From: a virus
Taxonomy: Duplodnaviria; Heunggongvirae; Uroviricota; Caudoviricetes
Virus record (IMG/VR): IMGVR_UViG_2561511241_000005
Location: 1 to 57,087 of that record
Length of the DNA stretch: 57,087 nucleotides
Reading direction: 5' to 3' (one strand)
Under the pieces are notes generated by a model, which did no database searches, had not been told where the DNA came from, and saw nothing but the letters and a program-made list of their open reading frames with translations. A program made the position numbers and the translations under genes. Positions 6,260-52,966 of this stretch are shown here, one piece after another. Numbering within the stretch: position 1 is the stretch's first letter; each line of letters opens with the position of its first letter.

Positions 6260-6292
6260 AACGTTATTTCCTCAGGTTTACATTTTGTATAT

Positions 6293-7012
6293 TTAACCAC
6301 AAACGAATAATTTAGTTATCCATGCTTGGCCCTTAGCAGTGAATAACGCTTGCTCATATCCATCGAAAGTTAATTTCATCTCGCCGTATCCTTTATCAAT
6401 AAACCATTGACTAAATACACGACGACGACAACGAAGATCATAAACTCCAACAGCTTCGAGCTTTCTGTTTAATTTAATCGCAGACATTCCCAGCGCTTTT
6501 CCGACTTCTGAAGCCGTGCGGTGCATGTCGTTTTTAACAATGGCATCACAGACAGCCGCTTTTGGCGCAAGCTGTTTATTAACCAGTGCAAGCCGTTCCT
6601 TTTCCTCAGCAAGATCGGCAGCAAGGCGCAACGCTTCGCTTAATGTTTGAGGAATTGCAGGAGTGTTTTGCTGTACCCGTTTTTCAAGTTCAAACCATCG
6701 ATCAATAACAGCCGTCCGGCGCTTGATGTCGTAGCCAGTTATTAAAATCTCAGTGTATCTTCTATCGAGAAGATATTCCCAGCTATTCGGATTGTTTTTA
6801 TCATATTGATTGCATATAACTGATTGATTTGTAACGTAACTCAAATCTGATTTACGAATATAATCATCAGGTTTACCGCCTAACAATGCAGAAAGCATAA
6901 CGCGAATATCACGGCATACATTAAGATGTTTCTTACCAGTTAAATCTGCAATCTCACGCGATGACATTGTTAACACTTCATTCGCGCCATTAAGCGCCAT
7001 CAATTCAGACAT
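6293..7012 (-). CDS. Antirepressor (Rha-like N-terminus, KilAC-like C-terminus)
   Basis: ATG at 7010-7012 with GGAG RBS; EVLTMSSREIADLTGKKHLNVCRDIR Rha-like region and KilAC-like C-terminal region. Confidence 0.7.
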   Translation of the reverse strand: MSELMALNGANEVLTMSSREIADLTGKKHLNVCRDIRVMLSALLGGKPDDYIRKSDLSYVTNQSVICNQYDKNNPNSWEYLLDRRYTEILITGYDIKRRTAVIDRWFELEKRVQQNTPAIPQTLSEALRLAADLAEEKERLALVNKQLAPKAAVCDAIVKNDMHRTASEVGKALGMSAIKLNRKLEAVGVYDLRCRRRVFSQWFIDKGYGEMKLTFDGYEQALFTAKGQAWITKLFVCG

Positions 7013-8449: not shown

Positions 8450-8704
8450 TCATTCCTCCGGCAGCATTACCAGGTAAACGTCATTTACCGGGTAAGGGTT
8501 ACAAATAAATCCTTTGTGTGTTAATCCGTCGATAGCAACCATTACCGTATTTACAGGAAGTTCACACATTTTTGCGATTTCTTGGTGTGACACCCTGGCG
8601 TGGCGGCGATTATCCGCCTTTTCTGCCAACGCCATTAAGACAAGTTTTTGAATCGGGCTGTTAAGTTCCACTTTCCAGGCCTCAGTCATCATGTGCATAC
8701 TCAT
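8450..8704 (-). CDS. HTH DNA-binding protein at the cro position
   Basis: ATG at 8702-8704 with AGGAGA RBS; 84 aa; HTH-like segment SHQEIAKMCELPVNTVMVAIDGL; first gene of leftward operon. Confidence 0.5.
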   Translation of the reverse strand: MSMHMMTEAWKVELNSPIQKLVLMALAEKADNRRHARVSHQEIAKMCELPVNTVMVAIDGLTHKGFICNPYPVNDVYLVMLPEE

Positions 8705-8821
8705 TGCTTTTTCTCCTATGGTTAAAATGAACGCGAGGGCGGGTATCCCATTAGCATTAGATAGCAGTGACTGACCGCTCAACAGATCCCGCCGTTGCGT
8801 GATATTTGTTTTTCGCTTCAC

Positions 8822-9011
8822 AGCGACACCGGGTTTTTAAAGAGCTTTTAAGGTATGTGCCTTTTTGTGCTTTCCATTATCTTTTTTCTTGCATCCTTGC
8901 AAGTATGGCCTTACCTTGTCTGCAAGTTTACAGAATGGAGTTTTAAGATCAAGGCTTGAAAAATACGTTTTGTGACTTGCGTCAAACTTTTTGAGGTTAT
9001 AGGGTAGCGAC
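8822..9011. promoter_or_regulatory. Divergent promoter/operator region between cro-position gene and CI-like repressor
   Basis: 190-bp intergenic region with repeated CTTGCA(AG) palindromic elements (8888-8927) and AT-rich promoter-like hexamers. Confidence 0.4.
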
Positions 9012-9659
9012 ATGAAAACAAAATGGTATGACTTAGCAAAGCAGCTTATGCGTGCGCAAGGCATGAGCCAGGATTCATTGGCGGATCTCATGGGGATCAC
9101 GAAAGGCGGCTTATCACACTGGCTGAATGGTCGCCGTGAGCCAAATCTTGAAGACATTGCGCGGATTATGCGGGCGCTTGGTCGTCGGCAATTCACTGTT
9201 ACACACGATGGAATGGTCATAGATGATTCTGTTTCTAACACGTTACCGGGCGCGCCACCGCGTGATTTAGGCAGTTACCCGGTTGTTGACTGGAAGGACG
9301 CAGTAAACAATATGGAAGATACAAGGCGATCAACATTACCACACGTTACAACTAGCGTTATTTGTTCAGATGATAGTTATTGGCTGGTAGCTAAAGGCGA
9401 ATCAATGAACGCGCCGCAAGGATTGAGTATACCAGCTGGGACGATGATACTTGTCGATCCGCACGCGCCAGCTATTGACGGAAAACTGGTTATAGCCCAA
9501 CTGGAGGAAGGGCAAACGCCTACGTTTAAACAGCTTGTTATTGATGGAGGTCAAAGGCTTTTACGTTCGCTCAATCCGCTGTATCCGCCAATCCCTATGA
9601 ATCCAGAATCTAAAATCATAGGTGTGGTAGTGGACGCGAAGATCGTAAACCTGCCATAA
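9012..9659 (+). CDS. CI-like repressor (HTH-XRE N-domain, S24 LexA-like peptidase C-domain)
   Basis: 215 aa; HTH near N-terminus; GESM (Ser) and TFKQL (Lys) self-cleavage dyad motifs. Confidence 0.85.
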   Translation: MKTKWYDLAKQLMRAQGMSQDSLADLMGITKGGLSHWLNGRREPNLEDIARIMRALGRRQFTVTHDGMVIDDSVSNTLPGAPPRDLGSYPVVDWKDAVNNMEDTRRSTLPHVTTSVICSDDSYWLVAKGESMNAPQGLSIPAGTMILVDPHAPAIDGKLVIAQLEEGQTPTFKQLVIDGGQRLLRSLNPLYPPIPMNPESKIIGVVVDAKIVNLP

Positions 9660-9665
9660 ATATTA

Positions 9666-9690
9666 GCCGCCGGATGGCGGCCTTTCTTTG
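9666..9690 (+). terminator. Rho-independent terminator after repressor gene
   Basis: GCCGCC-ggat-GGCGGC hairpin followed by T-rich run. Confidence 0.5.
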
Positions 9691-9783
9691 CCCGTAAAAT
9701 CACCAAAACGTAAACCAAAAACGGTTTTTATCATTTAAATATCAATGATATAGAAAATATTTTAAAAAAGTATACAAAATGGA

Positions 9784-9812
9784 TTGACTCGGTATATCAC
9801 AGGGCGTATATT
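9784..9812 (+). promoter_or_regulatory. PL-like sigma70 promoter
   Basis: TTGACT - 17 bp - TATATT; recurrent GTATACAAAATGG motif immediately upstream. Confidence 0.45.
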
Positions 9813-10162: not shown

Positions 10163-10453
10163 ATGACAGTTACAATCATGTATGGCAAATGTGACAGTAA
10201 ACTGAATGCCAGGGAACGCAGAAGAATAAAAAGAGAAAACGAAAGAAAATCATCACCTGCAATTAATAAAACAGACAATGTGGATAAAGCTATTCGCTTT
10301 GCAAACGAGGAAAGATGCAAACCAAATAGCATTAAAGAACGTCGCAAAGGATCAGTAAAATGGTATACGGAAAACGAAAGCGGCAACTACTACCACGCAA
10401 CGCAACCACGCCAACTAGGTGAAAAACCCCTGGATAAAGTCCGCTACCATTAA
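10163..10453 (+). CDS. N-like transcription antiterminator (arginine-rich motif)
   Basis: 96 aa; N-proximal NARERRRIKRENERK arginine-rich motif; AAGGAG RBS; position downstream of PL-like promoter and nut-like site. Confidence 0.45.
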   Translation: MTVTIMYGKCDSKLNARERRRIKRENERKSSPAINKTDNVDKAIRFANEERCKPNSIKERRKGSVKWYTENESGNYYHATQPRQLGEKPLDKVRYH

Positions 10454-10483
10454 TACAAAATGTAAACAGCAGGAGGTGACATT

Positions 10484-10603
10484 ATGGTTATCGAGGCGCT
10501 TCAATTCAAACTGGCTGTAGCGGAAATGCTTCACGATGCCGAAATGTGGAGCGCCGCGAATAAAGCCTTATACGTAGTGTTAACAGCGAAGGAGATTAAA
10601 TAG
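10484..10603 (+). CDS. small hypothetical protein (39 aa)
   Basis: Strong AGGAGGTGA RBS; stop overlaps GTG start of erf. Confidence 0.4.
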   Translation: MVIEALQFKLAVAEMLHDAEMWSAANKALYVVLTAKEIK

Positions 10604-11238
10604 TGAAAACAGAGTTACACAAAAAGCTGTGGACGATTCAGCAAACGCTGAACGCGCCGAAAAATCAGCGTAATAATTTTGGCGGGTATAATTACAGGTC
10701 GGCGGAGGATATTCTAGAGGCGGTTAAACCACTGCTTCAAAATATCACGCTGACTGTTAGTGATGAAATCGTCCTGATCGGCAATCGCTATTATGTGAAA
10801 GCAACGGCGACACTAAGCGACGGTGAAGACGAAATATCGGTAACTGCTTACGCCAGGGAAGAAGAAAGCAAGAAGGGAATGGACGCAAGCCAGCTAACTG
10901 GCGCGACATCAAGTTACGCGCGAAAATATGCTTTGAACGGCTTATTCTGCATTGATGACGCAAAAGATCCTGATACTGATGCTTACGCGAAACAGACAAA
11001 TCAACAGCCGCGACAGCAGAAAAACCCGCCAAAACAACAGCAGCAGAAAGCGCCGCCAAATCCTGATGAAGTATTAGCACGTTTCTGTGATGCAGCAGCA
11101 AAAGCGCCTGACGCTAACAAGTTACGCGAGATCTTCGGCAAGTGCTGGAAGCTATTGCCTAAGGATTCAGAACAACAACAGAAAGCGAAAGACGTTTATG
11201 ACATTCGCTTAAAAGAGCTTAACGGGGAGATCAATTAA
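10603..11238 (+). CDS. erf: Erf-family single-strand annealing recombination protein
   Basis: 211 aa; NAPKNQ...GGYNYRSAEDILEAVKPLL...YYVKATATLSDGE...SYARKYALNGLF closely resembles P22 Erf. Confidence 0.85.
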   Translation: MKTELHKKLWTIQQTLNAPKNQRNNFGGYNYRSAEDILEAVKPLLQNITLTVSDEIVLIGNRYYVKATATLSDGEDEISVTAYAREEESKKGMDASQLTGATSSYARKYALNGLFCIDDAKDPDTDAYAKQTNQQPRQQKNPPKQQQQKAPPNPDEVLARFCDAAAKAPDANKLREIFGKCWKLLPKDSEQQQKAKDVYDIRLKELNGEIN

Positions 11239-11654
11239 TGAGTTTAAATTCAATCACGCTGGGCGGGAATATCGGTAATGATATGGAAGTGCGCTACACG
11301 CAAAACGGGAAAGCTATTGGTAGTTTTCCGTTAGCTGTAACGAATGGCTACGGCGATAATAAGCGGGTAATGTGGATCACTTGTCTGGTATTTGGTGAGC
11401 GTGCGGAAAAATTAGCGCCGCATATCCGCAAGGGTGGAAAGATAGTGGTAAGCGGTCGCCTGGATGTTCGGCAGTTTGACCGGAACGATGGCACGAAGGG
11501 GACGGCGGTCGAAGTGGCGGTTAATGAGTTCGAATTCATGAACGTCAACCAACAAGGCCAGCAGCAAGGCCAGCAGCAGAAAGCGCCGCCGCAGCAGCAG
11601 AATAATAACGGGAATAATCCGCCGATGGACTTCGACGACGATATTCCTTTTTAG
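11238..11654 (+). CDS. ssb: Single-stranded DNA-binding protein
   Basis: 138 aa; OB-fold SSB pattern, Gln/Gly-rich linker and acidic C-terminal tail DDDIPF. Confidence 0.9.
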   Translation: MSLNSITLGGNIGNDMEVRYTQNGKAIGSFPLAVTNGYGDNKRVMWITCLVFGERAEKLAPHIRKGGKIVVSGRLDVRQFDRNDGTKGTAVEVAVNEFEFMNVNQQGQQQGQQQKAPPQQQNNNGNNPPMDFDDDIPF

Positions 11655-11670
11655 AATCAATGTGTTAGCG

Positions 11671-11949
11671 ATGAGTGATTATCTAAAACCGCCACCGCCA
11701 CCACGAACAAAAGAGCAAGTATTAAAAGAAGCCCGTGATCAAATCGATCATGGGCTTTTTTTATGCGGCACGGCAGCGGATCGGATGGCGAAAAGATTTA
11801 GTGACCTGTACGCAAAGCAAATATGGTTCGACAACTGGCAGGTAAGTTTTTACCCACTGCAAAGAAAACCGGATATGCATTGGCCTGAATATGTCGATCC
11901 ACGTATGCGCAAATATCGCGGTCGTATGGGCCAGGTTATTAACGATTAA
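11671..11949 (+). CDS. hypothetical protein
   Basis: ORF with in-frame ATG; start uncertain. Confidence 0.45.
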   Translation: MSDYLKPPPPPRTKEQVLKEARDQIDHGLFLCGTAADRMAKRFSDLYAKQIWFDNWQVSFYPLQRKPDMHWPEYVDPRMRKYRGRMGQVIND

Positions 11950-11963
11950 TGAGGTATTAAATC

Positions 11964-12188
11964 ATGGTCGAAGATAAAGAAGTCGATAAAGAAATGCCGG
12001 ACGGTGCTGATGATCTTATTACTTTTAGCGGTGGTTTGTATGAATTCGAAACGTCTGCGGGTTGGCATGATCACTGGCACTTTCCAACGCGCAAGGAATT
12101 AAGCGAACGTAAATCATTTGGCGAGGATGCCGAACGACTGGCGAATAACAAATGGCTTGATAAATTCATTGCGGAGGGCGGGAAATGA
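11964..12188 (+). CDS. hypothetical protein
   Basis: 74 aa, GAGG RBS. Confidence 0.5.
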   Translation: MVEDKEVDKEMPDGADDLITFSGGLYEFETSAGWHDHWHFPTRKELSERKSFGEDAERLANNKWLDKFIAEGGK

Positions 12189-12298
12189 ATCTTGCAAAAA
12201 TTGCCGCATTGCTTGCGGCGGTAGCGGTGGCGGTGCTGTATCTCAGCGTATCGCTTTATATTACGGTGGCGATCATAAAACTGATTACTAATATGTGA
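12185..12298 (+). CDS. micro-ORF, 37-aa hydrophobic peptide
   Basis: MNLAKIAALLAAVAVAVLYLSVSLYITVAIIKLITNM; ATGA overlap with upstream stop. Confidence 0.35.
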   Translation: MNLAKIAALLAAVAVAVLYLSVSLYITVAIIKLITNM

Positions 12299-12306
12299 GG
12301 CTAATT

Positions 12307-12429
12307 ATGAAAGTCAGTAAGGATATTGCAACGGTCGCGTTTTGCGTTATTTGCTTCCTGTTTACGGTTGTCTTTTGTGGCGCACTGGCTGCGGTGATTG
12401 GCCTTATTGGTAAAGGGGGGATGTTATGA
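12307..12429 (+). CDS. micro-ORF, 40-aa hydrophobic peptide
   Basis: MKVSKDIATVAFCVICFLFTVVFCGALAAVIGLIGKGGML; GAGG RBS; stop overlaps next start. Confidence 0.35.
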   Translation: MKVSKDIATVAFCVICFLFTVVFCGALAAVIGLIGKGGML

Positions 12430-12698
12430 CTCCGTGGAATGCAAAAGCTGGTGATCTCGTTGTTTTGCCCGCATATCGTAGTGACCCTGGGCTGGTCGTG
12501 CTGAATAAAGCATGTATAGAAATTGAGCGCCCGATCCTTGTTAAATACCTGGACGGAACAATTATAGAGCCGATCTTCTTTGACAAGATTGAACTGAAGG
12601 CCCGCAATGTTCGCGTTAAGCCGTTCCGGGCTTATGTTGAAGACCACTGGCGGAAATTGTTCGCCGGATTGAATGGGATGTTCGGCGTATGGCTATAA
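12426..12698 (+). CDS. hypothetical protein
   Basis: 90 aa ORF, translationally coupled. Confidence 0.5.
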   Translation: MTPWNAKAGDLVVLPAYRSDPGLVVLNKACIEIERPILVKYLDGTIIEPIFFDKIELKARNVRVKPFRAYVEDHWRKLFAGLNGMFGVWL

Positions 12699-12880
12699 AA
12701 TTAGTGAAGGTTAAACACCTGAAAGGCGGCGAAAAACTCCGCGCGTGGTTCGGATATGAATTTATTGCTACTGCCTTTTATTTTGGGCCAGGGGGCCAGG
12801 TGACAATTTTTGATGAAGAATACGACGAGGTTGGACAATGGCATCTTGAGCAATATGTCGAGGTGTTAAATGAAAATTAA
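12689..12880 (+). CDS. hypothetical protein
   Basis: 63 aa ORF. Confidence 0.45.
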   Translation: MAIKLVKVKHLKGGEKLRAWFGYEFIATAFYFGPGGQVTIFDEEYDEVGQWHLEQYVEVLNEN

Positions 12881-13836: not shown

Positions 13837-13935
13837 CCGAGTGATTCCGATCACATAAATATACATTTTGTATTGTGATCGCATATCCGTTTTGTAAGCC
13901 AAAATCAAAAGGTTTACGGTGCGGAGGAAGCAAAA

Positions 13936-15120: not shown

Positions 15121-15660
15121 ATGAAAAATGATTACGGCGGAAGCCATACGCCAAAAGAAATAAAGGACTTATGGCAAACGCCAAAACCAGTTTTTAGAGG
15201 AATGGATCGTGAATTCGAATTCGTCGCGGATGTGGCGGCAAACAAGGCAAACGCATTAGTTCCGCGATATATAACCGAAGAGATGGACACACTCCATTAT
15301 CCGTGGGGAGCGGTGGCAATGCCTGGTGAGTATGTCTGGCTTAATCCACCATATTCTAATCCGGGGCCATTCGTAGATAAGGCAGCGATGGAACATCACC
15401 GAAATCATATTGGCTGTGTAATGTTGTTGCCAGCCGACATCTCTGTTAACTGGTTTATGAACGGCGTGGAGACGGCAAACGAATGCCGATTAATCACGCG
15501 CGGGCGTCTGGCGTTTATCAATGCTGCGACAGGGAAACCAGCAAGCGGAAACAATAAAGGGAGCTTGTTCTTGATCTGGCATCCACGGTGCAGACATGAA
15601 TGTATTTTCACGCAGATAACACGTAAAGAGCTATATGCAAGAGGTGCAGAAAATGACTAG
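15121..15660 (+). CDS. Phage-type DNA N6-adenine methyltransferase
   Basis: 179 aa; NPPYS catalytic motif and overall resemblance to small phage Dam-family methylases. Confidence 0.8.
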   Translation: MKNDYGGSHTPKEIKDLWQTPKPVFRGMDREFEFVADVAANKANALVPRYITEEMDTLHYPWGAVAMPGEYVWLNPPYSNPGPFVDKAAMEHHRNHIGCVMLLPADISVNWFMNGVETANECRLITRGRLAFINAATGKPASGNNKGSLFLIWHPRCRHECIFTQITRKELYARGAEND

Positions 15661-16628: not shown

Positions 16629-17413
16629 GCAGGGCTAAACATTGGTTAAATAATTGGCTTAGAAATTGGGTGGTATGGTCGCTGTACGACGGCAGCGGGT
16701 ACGCCGTTAAAGATTGGGCGGACGCTGGTTATAAATGTTATTGCTTCAACTATGACGGCGCTAATCACGGTGATTATGACGGTGTAAAAATAATTCATCC
16801 AAATATTGAATATGTTAACGTCTGGATTGATAGCCATTTTCTGGTAATGTTCTCCCCTGAATTGTCTGTATATCCAGATCCTGACATTATCCTGGCTTTT
16901 CCTCCGTGCGATGATCTCGCCGTGTCCGGCGCTCGCTGGTTCGCTGATAAGCGGAAGAAAGACCCTTACTTTCAGCAGAAGGCAGCGTATAACGCAAAGT
17001 TAGTAGAAACGCTGGCGAGTATGTATAACGTGCCGTGGATGGTGGAAAATCCTGTAGGCGCACTGTCAACGTTATGGCGTAAACCGGATTTTATCTTCAA
17101 TCCGTGCGCTTACGGTGGCTACCTGCCGGAAGATGATAAGCATCCCGCTTTCCCGGAATACATTGCCGACCGCGACGCCTACACGAAGAAAACTTGTATT
17201 TGGTGCGGGAATGGATTTAAGCAGCCGCTATTCCGTCCTGTGCCGATGCCAGATGAATGGGAAGACAGTAAGCAGCACGCGAAGTTAGGCGGAAAATCAA
17301 AGCGAACAAAGATGATCCGCTCACTAACGCCGCGTGGCTTCGCCCGTGCTGTATTCCTGGCTAACGACCGGGCCATCAATCGTACTACGCTCAACCGCGT
17401 TTTGCCGGACTGA
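16625..17413 (+). CDS. Putative SAM-dependent DNA methyltransferase, C5-cytosine-like motifs
   Basis: 262 aa; DGSGY (motif I-like), FPPCDDLAVSG (PC motif IV-like), MVENPVG (ENV motif VI-like). Confidence 0.5.
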   Translation: MSRAKHWLNNWLRNWVVWSLYDGSGYAVKDWADAGYKCYCFNYDGANHGDYDGVKIIHPNIEYVNVWIDSHFLVMFSPELSVYPDPDIILAFPPCDDLAVSGARWFADKRKKDPYFQQKAAYNAKLVETLASMYNVPWMVENPVGALSTLWRKPDFIFNPCAYGGYLPEDDKHPAFPEYIADRDAYTKKTCIWCGNGFKQPLFRPVPMPDEWEDSKQHAKLGGKSKRTKMIRSLTPRGFARAVFLANDRAINRTTLNRVLPD

Positions 17414-17435
17414 AGTTTACAAAATGGCGTCATTG

Positions 17436-17451
17436 TGTGATGAATGTCACA
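17436..17451. promoter_or_regulatory. Perfect TGTGA-N6-TCACA palindrome (CRP-consensus-like site)
   Basis: tgtgatgaatgtcaca in intergenic region between methylase-like gene and NinF-like ORF. Confidence 0.3.
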
Positions 17452-17572
17452 TAATGGCGCTTTACACCTTGTTAGCACGTATCCATTTTGTATACTTCAA
17501 GCAAACAAAATGCTCTTTAAAAATCCGGCAGCGCTGAAATGCGTAGAAATCACCTGAAAAGGAGAGAGCATT

Positions 17573-23699: not shown

Positions 23700-23799
23700 A
23701 AAGCGTGATCTACTCCGCAAAGTATACAAAATGGCATTGTTACGGCAGTGCCGTTTTGTTATATATAAGTCAAGGAAAGACGGAAGTGGAGACAAGAAA

Positions 23800-25427: not shown

Positions 25428-25614
25428 CGACCATGAATATGATGGCGTTTATCAGTCATTGGCTACGCGAGCTTATTACCGCCTCGAAGGTGAGCACGTT
25501 TTGATGCGCCTCGGTAGTCTTGATCGGTGGCATGAGCCATTTTTACCTATGACAGCGAAAGAAGTTATCACGATGGTTAATCATAGATACTGGCGCAAGG
25601 TTGGTGATTTGTAA
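25417..25614 (+). CDS. hypothetical protein
   Basis: 65 aa ORF. Confidence 0.45.
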   Translation: MGNSDHEYDGVYQSLATRAYYRLEGEHVLMRLGSLDRWHEPFLPMTAKEVITMVNHRYWRKVGDL

Positions 25615-25676
25615 CCATAATCGCGCATAAAAAACAAATAGATTAAAATATTTCCTAACAATGCGAAATTGTAATT

Positions 25677-25705
25677 ACCCGGCACCGCGCCGGGTTTTTG
25701 CTTTG
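25677..25705 (+). terminator. Rho-independent terminator immediately upstream of lysis genes (tR'-like)
   Basis: ACCCGGC-accgc-GCCGGGT hairpin followed by TTTTT. Confidence 0.5.
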
Positions 25706-39148: not shown

Positions 39149-39238
39149 TTAATTTTTGTTTTTAAGTGCTTTTAACATTTCTTCGATGAAGTCCGCATAG
39201 CGTTCATGTTCGTTGGGACGGTAGTTTACGTTTTTCAT
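39149..39238 (-). CDS. micro-ORF, 29-aa peptide (cassette 1)
   Basis: MKNVNYRPNEHERYADFIEEMLKALKNKN; AGAGGA RBS. Confidence 0.3.
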   Translation of the reverse strand: MKNVNYRPNEHERYADFIEEMLKALKNKN

Positions 39239-39487
39239 TTTCTTATCCTCTTTTGCTTCCTCCGGTTAATCCGGCCTTTTAAATCCCTTTGCTGTTTCCT
39301 TAGTTTTAGGGGTTTTCGCCTCCCTCGTTCCATCGGTTAGCTGTGCTTCAAGTCTTAATCCTTTATATCCTTCGACCTTCTTTTATCTCTCTCATCCTTC
39401 ACCTTCTTTATACAAAATGTATTCGTTGAAATGAAGCCATTTTGTATAAAATAGAGACATAGATCACATTTTGTATGAGGTTAAATC

Positions 39488-42621: not shown

Positions 42622-42788
42622 AACATCCCCCTTTGTGCAACGTCTTTCTTATTTGCTTTCTGTATACAATATGTGATTGCCAAAGTGAAGCCATTTTGAA
42701 AACTGGCTATAATCATTGTGATGAGGATCTCATTTTTCGCGTAGAATCGCGTAAAGGTATATACAAAATGTAACTTATAGGGGGATTT

Positions 42789-44477: not shown

Positions 44478-44607
44478 ATCACACCTCCGCGCCATTTTGT
44501 TAACTGTGCTTCCGTTTGAGTAAAATATACATATTGTAAAAAGCGCGATCAACCATTTCGGTATGATTTAGCGTGACGCAGATCACAAAAAAGCGAAAGG
44601 TGATAAA

Positions 44608-49500: not shown

Positions 49501-51576
49501 ATTGCTGAAGAGAAAAAGGCAACGGCTGAATCACTGAAAACCATCACGGCAGAAATGAACACGATGGATTCTAACCTCAAAGGTCAGATCTCAAACGTGG
49601 AACACGCAGTGGCTGACGAGGCCAGCGCCCGCGCTGAAGCCATTAACGGTGTGAATGCTTCAATAGGCAATCTCGACAAGAAAACCGACGCCAGCATCAA
49701 TAGACTTGATCAAGCTATTGCAGACGAAACGAACGCCCGCACACAGGCAGTCAGTGACGTTAACGCGAGTATCTCATCGCTCGACAAGAAAACAGACGCC
49801 AGCGTTAAACGCTTGGATCAAGCAATAGCAGACGAAACCAGTGCAAGAACTGAAGCTATCAGCAGTGTTAACGCCTCAATAAACAGCATTGACACTAAGG
49901 TTACAAGCAACGTAACACGTATTGATAAAGCCATCGCAGACGAAACGAAGGCACGCACAGACGCGATCAGCGGCGTCAAAGCAAGTATTGACACACTTGA
50001 AGGTAACACCAATTCAGAAGTTAAACGCCTGGACCAGGCAATTTCTGACGAGGCCAGCGCACGCAGCCAGGCGGTGAGCGATGTTAAAGCGTCAATAAGC
50101 AATCTTGAAAGCAAAACTGACGCAAGTGTTTCCCGTCTCGACAAGGCTATCGCTGACGAAACACAGGCAAGAAGCGCTGCAATAACAGATGTTAAGGCTG
50201 ATTTGACAACGCTCGAAAACAGCACAAACGCCAGCGTCAAACGACTTGATCAGGCGATTGCCGACGAATCAAGCGCACGCGCTGAAGCAATCTCAGGCAT
50301 TAACGCAGAGATCGGCAGCATTGAAAACAACGTTGACAAAAACAGCGATGATATAAATCAGACCAAAGCAAGCCTGCAAAACGCTTCGATTGCGCTTATT
50401 AATAACTCAATCGCTCAAACCAACACTCGCGTTACCCTTACGGCCCAGTACAAGAAAGGTCGCAAGGAAACAAACGCGCAGATTGATCGTATTGACAGCG
50501 TTATCGCTGAAGAGAAAAAGGCTACAGCCGAAGCAATTGGCGTGGTAAAAGCATCGATCACGGATCTCGACAAGAAAACCAACGCCAGCGTTTCACGTCT
50601 CGATAAGGCCATTGCAGACGAAACCAACGCACGCAGCGAGTCAATCAGCGGTGTTAACGCAAGCATTAACACGCTTGAAAGCAACACAGAATCAGAGGTT
50701 AGCAGACTGGACCAGGCAATTGCTGACGAGGCAAGCGCCAGAGCACAAGCCATCAGTGGCGTGAATGCGTCAATTTCAACCCTTGATGGCAAAGTTACAA
50801 GCAACGTGACCCGTATCGACAAGGCCATCGCTGACGAAACGAAGGCCCGCACTGACGCGATAAGTAGTCTTAACTCATCGCTTACCAGTACGATTAATTC
50901 GAAAGTATCTGAAGTATCCACAGCACTTTCTACGCATGAAGCATCAAGCGCGGAAAAATTCAACCAGATCTCAGCGTCTTTCGAAGCGGTAAACTCAAGC
51001 ATCACAGAATGGTCGCAGACCATGACAACGGCGGACGAGGCATTATCAACCAAAATTGATCAGCTGACAGTGACCGTTAACGGGAACACCACGGCGATCG
51101 AGACAACATCTAAAGCGTTAACCGACTTCAAAGGTAACGTTGATGCGTCATTGTCAATCAAGATTGCCACCGACAACAACGGCATGAAATACGCAACAGG
51201 TATGTCACTTGGCCTGACTGGTAGCGGTACTAACGTTCAATCGCAGTGTATTTTCCTTGTTGACCGCTTCGTGTTAATGACTGCGGCAAACGGCACATAT
51301 ACAACGCCTTTCTATGTGTCTAATGGTGCAATGTATGTGAAAGAAGCGTTTATTAAAGACGCCTCGATCACTAACGCGAAAATAGGTTCATACATCCAGT
51401 CAAATAACTATGTTTCCGGCAGCACTGGCTGGAAACTGGATAAATCAGGGACGTTTGAAAACTATGGCGCGGTAAGTGGCGAAGGTGCAATGAAATTAAC
51501 TAATACCACTATCTCGGTAAAAGACGGCAACGGGCGTTTACGCGTACAAATTGGTAGGATTACAGGATCATGGTAG
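46534..51576 (+). CDS. Central tail fibre / host specificity protein J-like with long repetitive coiled-coil insertion
   Basis: 1680 aa; N-terminal 800 aa align with lambda J (LSEGPIYGPV, FGCTSRGQAYRAGKWL); internal 36-aa repeats. Confidence 0.9.
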   Translation: MSSGGGKAKTPTLLNDNLYHKQFYRVLDILSEGPIYGPVNQKAPLNSVMLNDTPVTDANGNTSIPGISIAWRNGTADQSPINGFNAIESTVIVNAKVTHDTPIIRTVSDPNVNRVRLNVGVDALVQSDDKGNQYNTSVMLMVDVKPSSSSTWSLVKNITIGPGKQSGEYLEAHVINAPDEKPFDIRVRRVTPDSKSDLLRNDTRWSSYSEIIDDNLSYPHTAVAGAVIDHDQYTDTPTRTYHLRGLIVDVPDNYNPETRAYSGLWLGGFKKAYTNNPAWLFRYLVKNERFGLARHAGYIDVDDGALYTLSQYCDQLVDDGYGGLEPRMTLNAYITEQMSARDLLDNIAGMFRGIALWDGQRLTVMIDAPQDPIATITNANVVDGEFTRSSIARAECYNAVIVSWTDPENGWEQSKEYVADDELIARDGYNETTLEAFGCTSRGQAYRAGKWLIETAKREPSKFTFKMARDAIHFTPGDIIEILDNNRAGARLGGRIVANNGKVITVDKVDSEYITAGDTISLLDSDGKFKKHQITGVSGNKITLAAAPSWIRNGTVFAVSTESAKPVLCRIISVAETENNSVYTIEAAQHDQNKQAVVDEGAIFEVNNDTLNHFRVPNIENLKVLNVGSETVQCRATWETQTTTHRLTFEIRVYNDEGRVVAAYETTNYRYDFYGLDAGSYTLGIRGRNDTGMKGAESIVDLVIGAPAAPIGVNWVSGVFQATVYPISKTTLTTDTAYEFYYSGENQITDPSKVTTLAQFTGRGYQWTFGGMNTGHKYYVYVRTRNAFGVSDFVEASGKPTENFDEISDYVMKDVMESEQFKDMIGDIKDLGDRADLIESATNDLKTATDNLKTATDNLTNITDELRVDTDNLTNITDELRTDTDGLITETGAIKADTDTLKKETEDLYKKVEENADDIGQHEARIDSLEVSSEKVGSELAQAKASLQNASLALINNSLAQTNTRVTLTAQYKKGRTETKAEIDRIDNVIAEEKKATAESLKTITAEMNTMDSNLKGQISNVEHAVADEASARAEAINGVNASIGNLDKKTDASINRLDQAIADETNARTQAVSDVNASISSLDKKTDASVKRLDQAIADETSARTEAISSVNASINSIDTKVTSNVTRIDKAIADETKARTDAISGVKASIDTLEGNTNSEVKRLDQAISDEASARSQAVSDVKASISNLESKTDASVSRLDKAIADETQARSAAITDVKADLTTLENSTNASVKRLDQAIADESSARAEAISGINAEIGSIENNVDKNSDDINQTKASLQNASIALINNSIAQTNTRVTLTAQYKKGRKETNAQIDRIDSVIAEEKKATAEAIGVVKASITDLDKKTNASVSRLDKAIADETNARSESISGVNASINTLESNTESEVSRLDQAIADEASARAQAISGVNASISTLDGKVTSNVTRIDKAIADETKARTDAISSLNSSLTSTINSKVSEVSTALSTHEASSAEKFNQISASFEAVNSSITEWSQTMTTADEALSTKIDQLTVTVNGNTTAIETTSKALTDFKGNVDASLSIKIATDNNGMKYATGMSLGLTGSGTNVQSQCIFLVDRFVLMTAANGTYTTPFYVSNGAMYVKEAFIKDASITNAKIGSYIQSNNYVSGSTGWKLDKSGTFENYGAVSGEGAMKLTNTTISVKDGNGRLRVQIGRITGSW
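49105..49188 (+). repeat. 42-bp perfect-to-near-perfect tandem duplication inside J
   Basis: aacctgacaaacatcactgacgaattgagg(g/a)(t/c)tga(c/t)acggac twice. Confidence 0.8.
49577..50890 (+). repeat. Array of about 11 in-frame 108-bp (36-aa) repeats plus a duplicated 170-bp block (49363-49533 and 50364-50532)
   Basis: Repeated LDKKTDASVxRLDQAIADETxARxxAISxVNASIxx units visible in translation and DNA. Confidence 0.8.
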
Positions 51577-52807: not shown

Positions 52808-52966
52808 TGTCTTACCCTCCATTGTTAAGTTGGTTGTAGTATCCATAAACAGCTTTTTAACAACATTGACATAAATCAATAAATACATTTTGTGCGCGTC
52901 AAAAATGTAACATAGATCACAAAATGGTAGAATTATTCCGTTAATTAACATAATGGAGTCATTGCG

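What the first reader, a model, noticed from the sequence alone, without database searches (positions are those of the whole stretch)
39407..39480. Recurrent ACAAAATG / CATTTTGT-centred motif, often as inverted pairs, in at least seven intergenic regions
A conserved core ACAAAATG(G) (or its reverse complement), usually preceded by GTATAC or GATC, recurs in non-coding gaps: 9770-9782 (GTATACAAAATGG, abutting the PL-like -35); 13861-13873; 17419-17426 plus inverted partner 17483-17495 (ATCCATTTTGTATACTT, a 17-mer whose reverse complement occurs at 9766-9782); 23721-23734 with inverted partner 23750-23759; 39407-39420 / 39438-39450 (perfect 11-bp inverted arms TATACAAAATG ... CATTTTGTATA) plus 39461-39474; 42690-42698 and 42761-42773; 52881-52892 and 52909-52925. 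The 12-mer ACATAGATCACA precedes the motif upstream of both the tape-measure gene and the tail-fibre gene, and GAAGCCATTTTG is shared between 39433 and 42687. Several copies contain GATC, and the phage encodes its own Dam methylase. The distribution at the early promoter, at module boundaries and at divergent promoters of the opposite-strand cassettes suggests a dispersed operator or activator site family for a phage regulator, possibly methylation-sensitive, rather than chance.
Basis: seen in the sequence. Interest (0 to 1): 0.75.

Follow-up and report, generated by a model that had tools for sequence, protein, structure and literature searches.

The report
Dispersed CI repressor operators in prophage
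The recurring ACAAAATG motif is most likely the binding site (operator) of this E. coli prophage's lambda-type CI repressor, but about 20 copies lie in 12 gene gaps, including among the tail genes, instead of the usual two places.

Summary
ACAAAATG occurs 21 times against 4.2 expected, and 16 copies lie in the 10.6% of the window that is intergenic (0.5 expected there).

The window is an mEp021-group (mEpimmI) prophage of E. coli UMNK88. The motif is the conserved core of a 15-bp pseudo-palindrome, TATACA-AAA-TGTATA.

The same sequence forms the three cro-cI operators in all 45 distinct intergenic regions of lambdoid phages whose CI shares this prophage's recognition helix. In 75 of 80 such loci it also forms a pair exactly 25 bp apart at the PL-type promoter.

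A matrix built only from those foreign operators finds 14 sites here (3.6 expected), 12 of them intergenic. Two complete lambdoid control genomes have sites essentially only at their OL and OR regions, apart from one matrix hit inside a gene.

Here the sites reproduce lambda's OR1/OR2 geometry (centres about -16 and -41) at:
- the immunity region
- the promoters ahead of nutR1 and nutR2
- four junctions where opposite-strand cassettes meet tail genes

Five sites abut ribosome-binding sites inside operons.

The best reading is a genome-wide operator set for CI. Binding itself is inferred, not shown. Methylation sensitivity has no support. This is a new variant of a known kind and of moderate interest.

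The parts
9012..9659 (+). cI: HTH_3 + Peptidase_S24 repressor (WP_000853269; Rep021 homolog), the proposed binder
   Evidence: Pfam HTH_3 3e-13 and S24 2e-19. It is 96-98% identical to the mEp021-group repressors. Its recognition helix ITKGGLSHWLNG compares with ITKGAVSHWLNA in lambdoid CIs that have canonical TATACA operators.
8927..8941 (.). S1 operator TTTACAGAATGGAGT (OR1-like); overlaps the -10 of the leftward early promoter
   Evidence: The leftward promoter is TTGATC (8952-8947), 16 nt, TAAACT (8930-8925), followed by nutL at 8849-8809. The site centre is about -16. MagusPhagus has the perfect ACAAAATG here. It is 100% conserved in mEp021 and mEp515.
8962..8976 (.). S2 operator AATACGTTTTGTGAC (OR2-like)
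   Evidence: It scores 11.8 bits with the foreign matrix. It is centred at -43 from a predicted leaderless cI start: TTGCGT-17-TAGGGT at 8977-9005, with +1 at the A of the ATG at 9012. S1 lies 35 bp away; the lambdoid OR1-OR2 spacing is 33 bp.
9015..9029 (.). S3 weak site AAAACAAAATGGTAT in cI codons 2-6 (possible OR3 analogue, +10)
   Evidence: It is conserved in mEp021, mEp515 and MagusPhagus. It scores low with the foreign matrix, so its status is uncertain.
9771..9785 (.). O2 operator TATACAAAATGGATT at the gp17 (N-like)/nutR1 promoter
   Evidence: It scores 12.0 bits. Its last 2 nt are the first 2 nt of the -35 hexamer in TTGACT-17-TATATT (9784-9812). Its centre is at -41. It is 100% conserved in relatives, whereas the promoter spacer varies.
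9796..9810 (.). Candidate O1 ATCACAGGGCGTATA at the same promoter (weak)
   Evidence: It lies exactly 25 bp from the O2 centre and overlaps the -10. Its reverse complement TATACG-CCC-TGTGAT resembles lambdoid OR2/OR3 variants. It scores below 6 bits, and its left half varies among relatives.
6277..6291 (-). Operator TATACAAAATGTAAA inside the leftward early operon, about 3 nt 5' of the ribosome-binding site of the exonuclease-like gene
   Evidence: It scores 16.9 bits. It belongs to a 34-nt repeat shared with 10453-10486 (I3). A homology break point lies at 6293-6295 against mEp021 and MagusPhagus.
10452..10466 (+). Operator AATACAAAATGTAAA between gp17 (N-like) and the gp18-like small ORF, about 4 nt 5' of the ribosome-binding site
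   Evidence: It scores 15.4 bits. It is 100% conserved in mEp021 and mEp515. No promoter features were found.
13860..13874 (.). Near-perfect palindromic operator TATACATTTTGTATT, flanked by inverted GATCACA / TGTGATC
   Evidence: It scores 19.1 bits.
17416..17430 (.). Half-type site TTTACAAAATGGCGT upstream of the CRP box
   Evidence: It forms an extended inverted repeat with 17480-17497 (I7).
17480..17494 (.). O1 operator TATCCATTTTGTATA overlapping the -10 of the promoter ahead of nutR2
   Evidence: It scores 13.4 bits. The promoter is TTGTTA-16-TATACT at 17469-17496. boxA TGCTCTTTAAAAA lies at 17511-17523. It is 100% conserved in relatives.
23723..23762 (+). PL-type module: O2 TATACAAAATGGCAT, -35 TTGTTA (23737-23742), O1 GTGCCGTTTTGTTAT (23748-23762)
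   Evidence: The operator centres are 25 bp apart. The region is absent from mEp021 and mEp515, so it is an accessory insertion. Both sites score low with the foreign matrix: each has one good half-site and the centre only.
39409..39477 (.). Three operators upstream of the tape-measure gene: 39409-39423 (19.1 bits), 39434-39448 (half-type), 39463-39477 (11.1 bits; overlaps the ribosome-binding site)
   Evidence: The centres are 25 and 29 bp apart. Predicted back-to-back promoters are rightward TTCGTT-17-TATAAA (39422-39450) and leftward TTCATT-17-TATAAA (39435-39407). Both arms are present in 43 IMG/VR relatives. A homology break recurs at 39395.
42663..42774 (.). Operators 42663-42677 (13.7 bits), 42688-42702 (half-type) and 42760-42774 (16.3 bits; 5 nt 5' of the tail-protein ribosome-binding site)
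   Evidence: This region is a paralogue of the 39404-39444 unit (D16). The first two sites are 25 bp apart, with TTGCCA-16-AAAACT (42677-42704) and a TATAAT at 42708-42713.
44489..44540 (-). Operators 44526-44540 (16.9 bits) and 44489-44503 (half-type) at the head of the leftward four-gene cassette
   Evidence: The leftward promoter TTGATC-17-TATATT (44552-44524) has the operator centred at -16. The second site abuts the ribosome-binding site of the first cassette gene.
52882..52930 (.). Operators 52882-52896 (10.6 bits) and 52916-52930 (half-type) between cor and the tail-fibre gene
   Evidence: The centres are 34 bp apart. An extended -10, TGGTAGAAT (52925-52933), overlaps the second site.

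Best explanation
**What it is.** ACAAAATG is the conserved core of a 15-bp pseudo-palindromic operator, TATACA-AAA-TGTATA. The core covers the end of the left half-site, the A-tract centre and the first two bases of the right half-site. The proposed binder is the prophage's lambda-type CI repressor (HTH_3 plus S24 domains, 9012-9659).

**How it is arranged.**
- *Immunity region.* Three sites lie between the leftward early promoter and cI, or just inside cI. S1 covers the -10 of the lytic promoter. S2 sits at -43 of a leaderless cI promoter. S3 sits at +10.
- *PL-type modules.* Four rightward promoters carry the module seen in lambdoid relatives. One operator is centred at about -41, and its last two bases start the -35 hexamer. 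A second operator lies 25 bp away and covers the spacer and -10. The four modules are at 9771-9812 (before nutR1 and the N-like gene), 23723-23765, 39409-39450 (before the tape-measure gene) and 42663-42704.
- *Single -10-covering operators.* These guard the promoter ahead of nutR2 (17480) and the leftward cassette promoter (44526).
- *Sites next to ribosome-binding sites.* Further strong sites sit 1-6 nt upstream of ribosome-binding sites inside operons (6277, 10452, 42760, 44489, 39463).

**Proposed mechanism.**
1. In the lysogen, CI dimers occupy all these sites. Pairs 25 bp apart bind cooperatively.
2. Bound CI occludes RNA polymerase at many promoters.
3. Bound CI may also block stray elongation at the intra-operon sites.
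4. When CI is lost, all units fire together.

**Shown here:** the sites, their enrichment, their geometry, and their identity with the operators of homologous CIs.

**Inferred:** that this CI binds them, that the predicted promoters are real, and what each site does.
For: 1. **Enrichment.** ACAAAATG occurs 21 times against 4.2 expected. In intergenic DNA alone the counts are 16 against 0.5, and 12 against 0.13 for TACAAAATG.

2. **An independent definition of the operator.**
   - L046 is a lambdoid contig with a divergent cro and cI, a cII, an O-like replication gene and an N-like gene. It has three TATACA-NNN-TGTAT sites between cro and cI. It also has a promoter-plus-pair module followed by a boxA.
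   - 80 IMG/VR loci with that type of CI give 45 distinct cro-cI regions. Each has exactly three such sites, at -81, -48 and -22 from the cI start, while the flanks vary.
   - 75 of the 80 loci have an OL-side pair exactly 25 bp apart, with the -35 overlapping the last 2 nt of the distal site.

3. **Protein link.** The window's CI is 46% identical overall to the L046 CI and about 60% identical over the first ~70 residues, the N-terminal DNA-binding domain. The recognition helix is nearly identical. Klebsiella phage KPP5665-2 has a CI 52% identical to the window's. It has AATACA-type sites at OR, including AATACAAAATGG. The operators annotated in the HK620 GenBank record share the ATAC/GTAT half-site.

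4. **Cross-prediction.** A matrix built from the 41 unique foreign operators finds 14 sites of at least 10 bits in the window, against 3.6 +/- 1.7 in shuffles.

5. **Geometry.**
   - Testing the operator-over--10 geometry, strong sigma-70 predictions arise at 8927(-), 17480(+) and 44526(-). The background probability is 0.0032 per position.
   - Four modules have 25-bp spacing.
   - The three early promoters each precede a published nut site (PMC11893012).

6. **Controls.** Complete genomes of Midgardsormr38 and KPP5665-2 have sites only at OL and OR, apart from one matrix hit inside a gene in Midgardsormr38. mEp021, mEp515 and MagusPhagus have 10-11 dispersed hits each.

7. **No competing homologue.** The window has no homologue of the lambdoid Cro or CII that could otherwise own the sites.
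Against: - There are no binding, ChIP or transcript data. The protein-DNA link is by homology only.
- About half of the copies (the ...AAAATGG class, including S1, the presumed OR1) have a poor right half-site. They score under 10 bits with the foreign matrix.
- In that class the base after TG is G in 10 of 20 sites and never A. Simple decay of a half-site does not explain this. It could mean a second specificity or a second protein.
- A -10-like TATAnn is built into the half-site, so 'operator overlaps -10' is partly automatic. Only three predicted promoters are strong. The -35 hexamers before the tape-measure gene are weak.
- A single strong operator at -41 would not obviously repress the gp17 promoter. 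Its partner at 9796-9810 is weak and varies among relatives.
- All 48 known group members share one CI (PMC11893012). No test of co-variation between site and protein was therefore possible inside the group.
- Conservation of the sites is 92-93%, against 88.7% for other intergenic DNA. This is only slightly higher, because the relatives are close.
Confidence: 0.77

Rival explanations
1. The motif is simply the shared -10/spacer core (CCATTTTG-TATACT) of a family of sigma-70 promoters copied around the genome. No dedicated regulator is involved.
For: In the reverse orientation the flank reads T(95%) A(80%) T/A A C T, which resembles a -10 hexamer. Several copies have a -35 at 16-17 bp and point at downstream genes. 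The units at 39.4 kb and 42.7 kb are paralogous (D16). Two copies supply the TG of an extended -10.
Against: - The conserved block lies at -20 to -13, where sigma-70 reads no sequence.
- T at -7 is present in only about 55% of copies.
- Many copies cannot be promoters. Some sit 1-6 nt from a ribosome-binding site, and others point antisense with no -35.
- The same sequence occurs as a triplet at canonical operator positions in 45 distinct lambdoid cro-cI regions. There both halves of the palindrome are conserved while the flanks drift.
Confidence: 0.08
2. The sites, or the ...AAAATGG subclass, are bound by a regulator other than CI. Candidates are the cro-position HTH_36 protein (8450-8821), the Rha/Ant protein (6293-7012), or a host factor such as CRP.
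For: - The G subclass has its own conserved feature, TGG, and a poor right half.
- In phiKO2, CB and Cro have different operator preferences (PMC4997575).
- GATCACA variants resemble CRP half-sites, and a perfect CRP box lies at 17436-17451.
- The window lacks the Cro of its lambdoid relatives, so some other lytic regulator must exist.
Against: - None of these proteins has any link to this sequence, whereas CI homologues are consistently flanked by it.
- Klebsiella KPP5665-2 has an ...AAAATGG site in the OR2 position.
- The motif does not fit TGTGA-N6-TCACA.
- G-class and T-class copies pair at the CI-type 25-bp spacing.
Confidence: 0.12
3. The inverted copies act as RNA hairpins (terminators, processing sites or attenuators) in the transcripts.
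For: - 39400-39460 folds at -17 kcal/mol (z = -6.2).
- 17410-17500 folds at -36.7 kcal/mol (z = -7.1).
- 13845-13885 folds at -11.2 kcal/mol (z = -4.0).
Against: - The paralogous unit at 42655-42715 does not fold better than shuffles (z = 0.27).
- Most copies are single.
- The arms are always the same word rather than co-varying pairs.
- No U-tract follows the hairpins.
- There is no Rfam match.
- Hairpin potential is an automatic by-product of two inverted operators.
Confidence: 0.03
4. The motif is a recombination linker, that is, a boundary sequence at which gene cassettes are exchanged between phages.
For: Homology with mEp021, mEp515 and MagusPhagus breaks within 40 bp of a site in 8 of 102 break points, against 3.1% expected. 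Recurrent breaks lie at 39395, 6293-6295 and 52865-52879. Sites flank the variable opposite-strand cassettes.
Against: - The enrichment is modest, and most break points lie elsewhere.
- 13-15 bp is short for homologous exchange.
- The idea does not explain the operator triplets in immunity regions or the fixed 25-bp spacing.
- It is better seen as a consequence: cassettes travel with their regulatory ends.
Confidence: 0.05
5. The sites form a Dam-methylation-sensitive switch.
For: The phage encodes a Dam-type methylase at 15121-15660. GATC overlaps the variant half-site GATCACA in three operator sites and in a decayed copy at 44581 upstream of the tail L gene, and flanks a fourth operator, 13860-13874. 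It also lies in the -35 hexamer TTGATC of two leftward promoters.
Against: - The conserved core has no GATC.
- Most sites, including all the strongest, lack one.
- GATC density is 4.1 per kb in intergenic DNA against 5.4 per kb in coding DNA.
- The lambdoid operators of the same family carry none.
Confidence: 0.04

Closest known systems
Lambda-type OL/OR operator systems (lambda, 434, P22, HK620): an HTH + S24 CI repressor binding 14-18-bp pseudo-palindromes
   Same: - The repressor architecture is the same.
- The site is pseudo-palindromic.
- There is a triplet in the immunity region, with one site over the lytic -10 and one near -42 of the cI promoter.
- Pairs 25 bp apart sit at about -16 and -41 of a PL-type promoter, with the distal site sharing bases with the -35. 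This is the OR1/OR2 layout known for lambda (my own knowledge). It is seen directly in 75 of 80 lambdoid relatives.
- The HK620 operators annotated in GenBank share the ATAC/GTAT half-site.
   Different: - Lambda-type phages have five or six operators at two loci. For comparison, N15 and phiKO2 have five at two loci (PMC4997575). Midgardsormr38 and KPP5665-2 also have sites only at OL and OR.
- Here about 20 sites occupy 12 intergenic regions over 47 kb. They include the late tail-gene region and positions next to ribosome-binding sites inside operons.
- The right half-site is weak in half of the copies.
- There is no Cro homologue.
Stoperators of Cluster A mycobacteriophages (L5 gp71 type)
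   Same: The repressor has numerous binding sites distributed across the phage genome in short intergenic gaps, beyond the early lytic promoter (PMC9283540 abstract). Several of the sites here lie inside operons just upstream of genes, where a bound repressor could stop elongation.
   Different: - Those repressors are monomers that read an asymmetric site (PMC9283540). By my own recollection of Brown et al. 1997, the sites have one orientation relative to transcription.
- Here the protein is a lambda-type dimeric CI and the site is pseudo-palindromic.
- Both orientations occur.
- Many copies are classical promoter operators.
- Blocking of elongation is untested.
P22 immI / Midgardsormr38 Arc-Mnt-antirepressor region embedded in the late operon
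   Same: A regulated, partly opposite-strand cassette interrupts the structural genes just before the tape-measure or tail genes. The Midgardsormr38 layout is; the P22 layout is from my own knowledge.
   Different: There the cassette has its own repressors (Arc, Mnt). Here the cassette junctions carry the operators of the main immunity repressor.

Membership tests
Lambda-type CI operator system | The phage encodes a repressor with an N-terminal Cro/CI-type HTH and a C-terminal S24 (LexA-like) domain | tested here: met
   Pfam HTH_3 3.3e-13 and Peptidase_S24 2.4e-19 for the protein encoded at 9012-9659. Rep021 of the same group confers immunity (PMC11893012, section 3.3).
Lambda-type CI operator system | The operator is a 14-18-bp (pseudo)palindrome | tested here: met
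   The 15-bp form is TATACA-NNN-TGTATA. It is fully symmetric in 13860-13874 and 39409-39423 (19.1 bits). The right half is weak in about half of the copies.
Lambda-type CI operator system | Several adjacent operators lie between cI and the divergent lytic promoter and overlap the promoter elements | tested here: met
   S1 (8927-8941) lies over the -10 of TTGATC-16-TAAACT. S2 (8962-8976) is at -43 of the predicted cI start. S3 is at +10. S3 is weak.
Lambda-type CI operator system | Homologous repressors in other phages are flanked by the same site at OR and OL | tested here: met
   45 of 45 distinct cro-cI regions carry three sites each. 75 of 80 loci carry an OL pair 25 bp apart. Midgardsormr38 and KPP5665-2 fit the same pattern.
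Lambda-type CI operator system | The repressor binds the sites directly (EMSA, footprint or ChIP) | not testable with these tools
   No experimental data were found. The 2025 group paper does not define operators. The 2023 Gp17 paper could not be read.
Lambda-type CI operator system | Operators are confined to the two early-promoter loci (OL and OR) | tested here: not met
   Sites occupy 12 intergenic regions from 6.3 to 52.9 kb, whereas the control lambdoid genomes have two loci. Hence this is a variant, not a plain member.
Cluster A mycobacteriophage stoperators | Many repressor sites are dispersed through the genome in short intergenic gaps | tested here: met
   About 20 sites are present, 12 of them scoring at least 10 bits in intergenic DNA.
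Cluster A mycobacteriophage stoperators | An asymmetric site is read by a monomeric two-domain repressor of the gp71 family | tested here: not met
   The repressor is HTH_3 plus S24, and the site is pseudo-palindromic.
Cluster A mycobacteriophage stoperators | Sites are oriented one way relative to transcription | tested here: not met
   Both orientations occur within the rightward operon, for example 13864(-), 17484(-), 39438(-) against 10455(+), 42763(+).
Cluster A mycobacteriophage stoperators | The bound repressor stops transcription elongation | not testable with these tools
   This is only suggested, by five sites lying 1-6 nt 5' of ribosome-binding sites inside operons.
Sigma-70 promoter element family | A -10 hexamer with A at -11 and T at -7, a -35 at 16-18 bp, and orientation toward a gene | tested here: inconclusive
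   3 of 42 site-orientations pass a strict test (background probability 0.0032). Several more are marginal, and many fail.
CRP binding sites | TGTGA-N6-TCACA dyad | tested here: not met
   The motif itself does not fit the dyad. One separate perfect box lies at 17436-17451.
Dam-methylation-controlled sites | GATC lies inside the protein-binding site and is conserved there | tested here: not met
   The core lacks GATC. There are 25 GATC in intergenic DNA (4.1 per kb, against 5.4 per kb in coding DNA), and only three operator sites overlap one.

The most novel reading that the evidence does not exclude
A lambda-type CI acts as a genome-wide silencer in a coliphage. It represses at least eight promoters, including repressor-controlled promoters directly upstream of tape-measure and tail genes and of opposite-strand cassettes. 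It also serves as an elongation roadblock at operators placed against ribosome-binding sites. This would be a convergent counterpart, in a dimeric CI, of mycobacteriophage stoperators. Copies at -41 beside weak -35 hexamers might also let CI activate some units, as at lambda PRM.
Probability: 0.3. Interest if true: 0.75.

Novelty: new variant of a known kind. Interest (0 to 1): 0.55.

Why it matters
The mEpimmI phages are reported to be as common in human gut isolates as lambdoid phages. They were recently proposed as a new family (PMC11893012), yet their operators and promoters have not been defined.

- **Testable map.** This analysis gives a concrete operator sequence and a map of about 20 predicted repressor sites and about 10 promoters. 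The published Rep021 plasmid could be used to test them.
- **The third nut site.** It offers an explanation for the group's puzzling third nut site. nutR2 appears to have its own repressor-controlled promoter, which also looks CRP-assisted.
- **Tail-gene cassettes.** It suggests that the opposite-strand cassettes within the tail genes, and the tail genes that follow them, are wired to the immunity repressor rather than only to Q-dependent late transcription.
- **Wider significance.** If confirmed, this would be an example in E. coli of distributed repressor control by a classical CI. It would be useful for studies of prophage silencing, DNA looping and moron regulation.

Tried and rejected
- **Q-binding element.** Rejected. 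The late promoter/terminator candidate at 25600-25700 has no motif.
- **Host-factor consensus sequences.** IHF, Fis, TyrR, DnaA, LexA and CRP were compared from memory. None fits. A LexA-box search found nothing above chance.
- **CTTGCA-N4-TGCAAG as the operator.** This palindrome at 8888-8903 occurs only once.
- **Literature search for the word itself.** It returned only unrelated primers.
- **The 2023 Gp17 paper.** It is not held in the library.
- **Phylogenetic footprinting.** Comparison with mEp021 and mEp515 is weak because the genomes are about 87% identical. The 43 IMG/VR loci are biased, because the search required exact arms.
- **Co-variation with the repressor.** Impossible inside the group, because all members share one CI.
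- **Half-site-only matrix.** At 9 bits it is not enriched (39 hits against 31 expected). Only high-scoring copies or full sites are informative.
- **Cassette gene functions.** PHROGs gives only 'unknown function'.
- **Rfam.** No match.
Full report
**Origin of the window.** The window is identical to E. coli UMNK88 (NC_017641.1, 1617020-1674106). It is a prophage inserted in abgT. It is 85-90% identical to phages mEp021, mEp010, mEp013, mEp044, mEp515, mEp554 and MagusPhagus. These make up the recently described Nus-dependent, non-lambdoid 'mEpimmI' group (PMC11893012). That paper reports the following:
- a lambda-like repressor (Rep021) that is about 96% identical in all 48 known members
- an N-like antiterminator (Gp17) acting at three nut sites

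It does not define operators or promoters.

ACAAAATG or its complement occurs 21 times, against 4.23 +/- 1.88 in shuffles.
- Using the RefSeq gene calls, 16 copies lie in the 10.6% of the window that is intergenic. It is the most over-represented 8-mer there. TACAAAATG occurs 12 times in intergenic DNA and once in coding DNA.
- Shuffling each intergenic region separately controls for their low G+C content. It gives 0.50 and 0.13 expected copies.
- Seven further members were missed: 6277, 8927, 8962, 9015, 10452, 44489 and 44526.

**Anatomy of the motif.** Aligning 20 intergenic copies shows a conserved block, (A)(G/T)TATACAAAATG(G/T), with little conservation beyond it.
- Half of the copies continue TGTA. 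This makes a 15-bp pseudo-palindrome, TATACA-AAA-TGTATA.
- The other half continue TGG and have a poor right half.
- Copies occur in both orientations relative to the surrounding genes. That argues for a DNA-level rather than an RNA-level role.

**The key comparison.**
- *A different phage with the same motif.* An exact search of IMG/VR for the two-arm unit returned 43 relatives of the same group and one different phage, L046. L046 is a lambdoid contig with an O-like replication gene, cII, cro, cI and an N-like gene.
- *Its cro-cI gap.* The gap holds three sites: TATACATTTCGTATC, TATACAAAATGTGTC and AATACAAATTGTATG.
- *Its PL-type promoter.* TTGCAT-17-TATATT is followed by a boxA. It carries one site over the spacer and -10, and a second site 25 bp upstream whose last bases begin the -35.
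- *The protein link.* L046's CI is 46% identical overall to the window's CI and about 60% identical over the first ~70 residues (the N-terminal domain). The recognition helix is ITKGAVSHWLNA, against ITKGGLSHWLNG in the window.

**Extending the comparison.**
- 80 IMG/VR loci encode that type of CI. They give 45 distinct cro-cI regions. Every one has exactly three TATACR-NNN-YGTRT sites, at -81, -48 and -22 from the cI start, amid diverged flanks.
- 75 of the 80 loci have an OL-side pair exactly 25 bp apart, with the same -35 overlap.
- Klebsiella phage KPP5665-2 has a CI 52% identical to the window's. It has three AATACA-type sites in its cro-cI gap, the middle one reading AATACAAAATGG.
- HK620, a more distant relative, has annotated operators of the form AATAC-N7-GTATT.

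**Cross-prediction.** A symmetric matrix was built only from the 41 unique foreign operators.
- It finds 14 sites of at least 10 bits in the window, against 3.6 +/- 1.7 in shuffles (maximum 8).
- With intergenic-only shuffles the figures are 11 observed and 0.43 expected.

**Controls.**
- The complete Midgardsormr38 genome has sites only at OL (three) and OR (three), plus one hit inside a gene.
- KPP5665-2 has them only at OL and OR.
- mEp021, mEp515 and MagusPhagus each have 10-11 dispersed hits.

Dispersal is therefore a property of the mEpimmI group.

**Layout in the window (coordinates verified).**

*Immunity region.*
- S1 (8927-8941) covers the -10 of a leftward promoter, TTGATC-16-TAAACT, that leads to nutL.
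- S2 (8962-8976) is centred at -43 from a predicted leaderless cI start (TTGCGT-17-TAGGGT, with +1 at the ATG).
- S3 (9015-9029) lies at +10.

*Four rightward modules that copy the lambdoid PL design.* Each has operators 25 bp apart, with the distal one overlapping the -35 by 2 nt.
- 9771-9812, ahead of nutR1 and the N-like gene. Its proximal operator is weak.
- 23723-23765
- 39409-39450, ahead of the tape-measure gene
- 42663-42704

*Single operators over a -10.*
- TTGTTA-16-TATACT (17469-17496) lies 8-15 nt upstream of the nutR2 boxA.
- TTGATC-17-TATATT (44552-44524, minus strand) heads a four-gene leftward cassette.

*Promoter test.* The operator-over--10 geometry was tested against all intergenic positions. 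Three cases are strong sigma-70 predictions, where 0.13 would be expected by chance.

*Sites next to ribosome-binding sites.* Five sites (6277, 10452, 42760, 44489, 39463) lie 1-6 nt upstream of ribosome-binding sites inside operons. They have no promoter features.

**Interpretation.** The best-supported reading is that these are operators of the CI repressor. In the lysogen CI would shut three nut-linked early promoters. It would also shut promoters at the junctions between the opposite-strand cassettes and the tail genes.

The sites next to ribosome-binding sites could be any of the following:
- roadblocks, an idea borrowed from mycobacteriophage stoperators (PMC9283540)
- looping partners
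- remnants of older modules

This cannot be decided here. Binding by CI, the reality of the predicted promoters and the direction of regulation are all inferred.

**Points that do not fit neatly.**
- The TGG subclass, including S1, scores poorly with the foreign matrix. The base after TG is G in 10 of 20 sites and never A.
- The gp17 promoter has only one strong site, at -41.
- The -35 hexamers upstream of the tape-measure gene are weak.

**Rivals.**
- *A pure promoter-core family.* This fails for the many copies that cannot be promoters. It also fails to explain why both halves of the palindrome are conserved in foreign immunity regions.
- *Another binding protein.* This cannot be excluded for the TGG subclass. 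However, the window lacks the lambdoid Cro and CII, and the cro-position protein is an unrelated HTH_36 protein.
- *RNA hairpins.* These are a by-product of inverted operators. One paralogous unit does not fold (z = 0.27), and Rfam finds nothing.
- *Recombination linkers.* Homology break points are modestly enriched near the sites, at 8 of 102 against 3.1% expected. This looks like a consequence of cassettes moving together with their regulatory ends.
- *Dam sensitivity.* There is no support. The core has no GATC, and GATC is not enriched between genes.

**Comparison with known systems.** It works like lambda's OL/OR system and meets every defining feature that could be tested, except confinement to two loci. 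N15 and phiKO2 have five operators at two loci (PMC4997575), and the two control lambdoid genomes behave the same way. It resembles Cluster A stoperators only in dispersal. The protein family, the site symmetry and the orientation rule all differ. I therefore file it as a new variant of a known kind. On the evidence of the searchable literature, the operators of this phage group have not been described.

Noticed in passing
17436-17451 (with 17469-17523): A perfect CRP core, TGTGATGAATGTCACA, is centred about -59.5 to -61.5 from the start of TTGTTA-16-TATACT. That promoter lies just upstream of the nutR2 boxA. The half-sites are kept while the spacer varies in mEp021 and mEp515. nutR2 may therefore have its own CRP class-I-type promoter, which could explain why this group has a third nut site.
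   Followed up: partly
8977-9014: cI looks leaderless, as at lambda PRM. TTGCGT-17-TAGGGT places +1 on the A of the ATG at 9012, and an operator is centred at -43.
   Followed up: partly
27689-28606: About ten tandem tiny ORFs (22-52 aa, each a single hydrophobic helix) lie on the + strand between the lysis genes and terS. RefSeq does not annotate them.
   Followed up: partly
25600-25700: A candidate Q-dependent late promoter, followed by a strong terminator hairpin (25677-25695), lies just before the holin gene. It carries no copy of the motif.
   Followed up: partly
9665-9784: The 17-mer at 9768-9784 is the reverse complement of the nutR2 promoter core (17481-17497). Read leftward, it offers a TATACT -10 with no -35. 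It could yield an RNA of about 90 nt ending at the bidirectional terminator at 9665-9682.
   Followed up: no
2027, 39230, 42240, 52799: A repeated gene-start sequence (reverse complement GAGGATAAGAAAATGAAAAAC) heads several small minus-strand genes, including cor. An unannotated 28-aa ORF starts at 39238 on the minus strand.
   Followed up: no
8947-8952 and 44547-44552: Two predicted leftward promoters use the -35 hexamer TTGATC, which contains a Dam site.
   Followed up: no
49598-50882: Repeats with a 108-bp period (36-aa units, 60-80% identical) lie inside the 1680-aa tail tip fibre gene.
   Followed up: no
whole window: Intergenic DNA is more conserved against mEp021 and mEp515 (about 88.7% identity) than coding DNA (about 86.2%).
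   Followed up: partly
L133 (Midgardsormr38) 10441-12777: The lambdoid relative with the same CI type carries an Arc/Mnt/antirepressor cassette just before its tape-measure gene. That is the same position as the operator-flanked cassette at 38.7-39.5 kb in the window.
   Followed up: no
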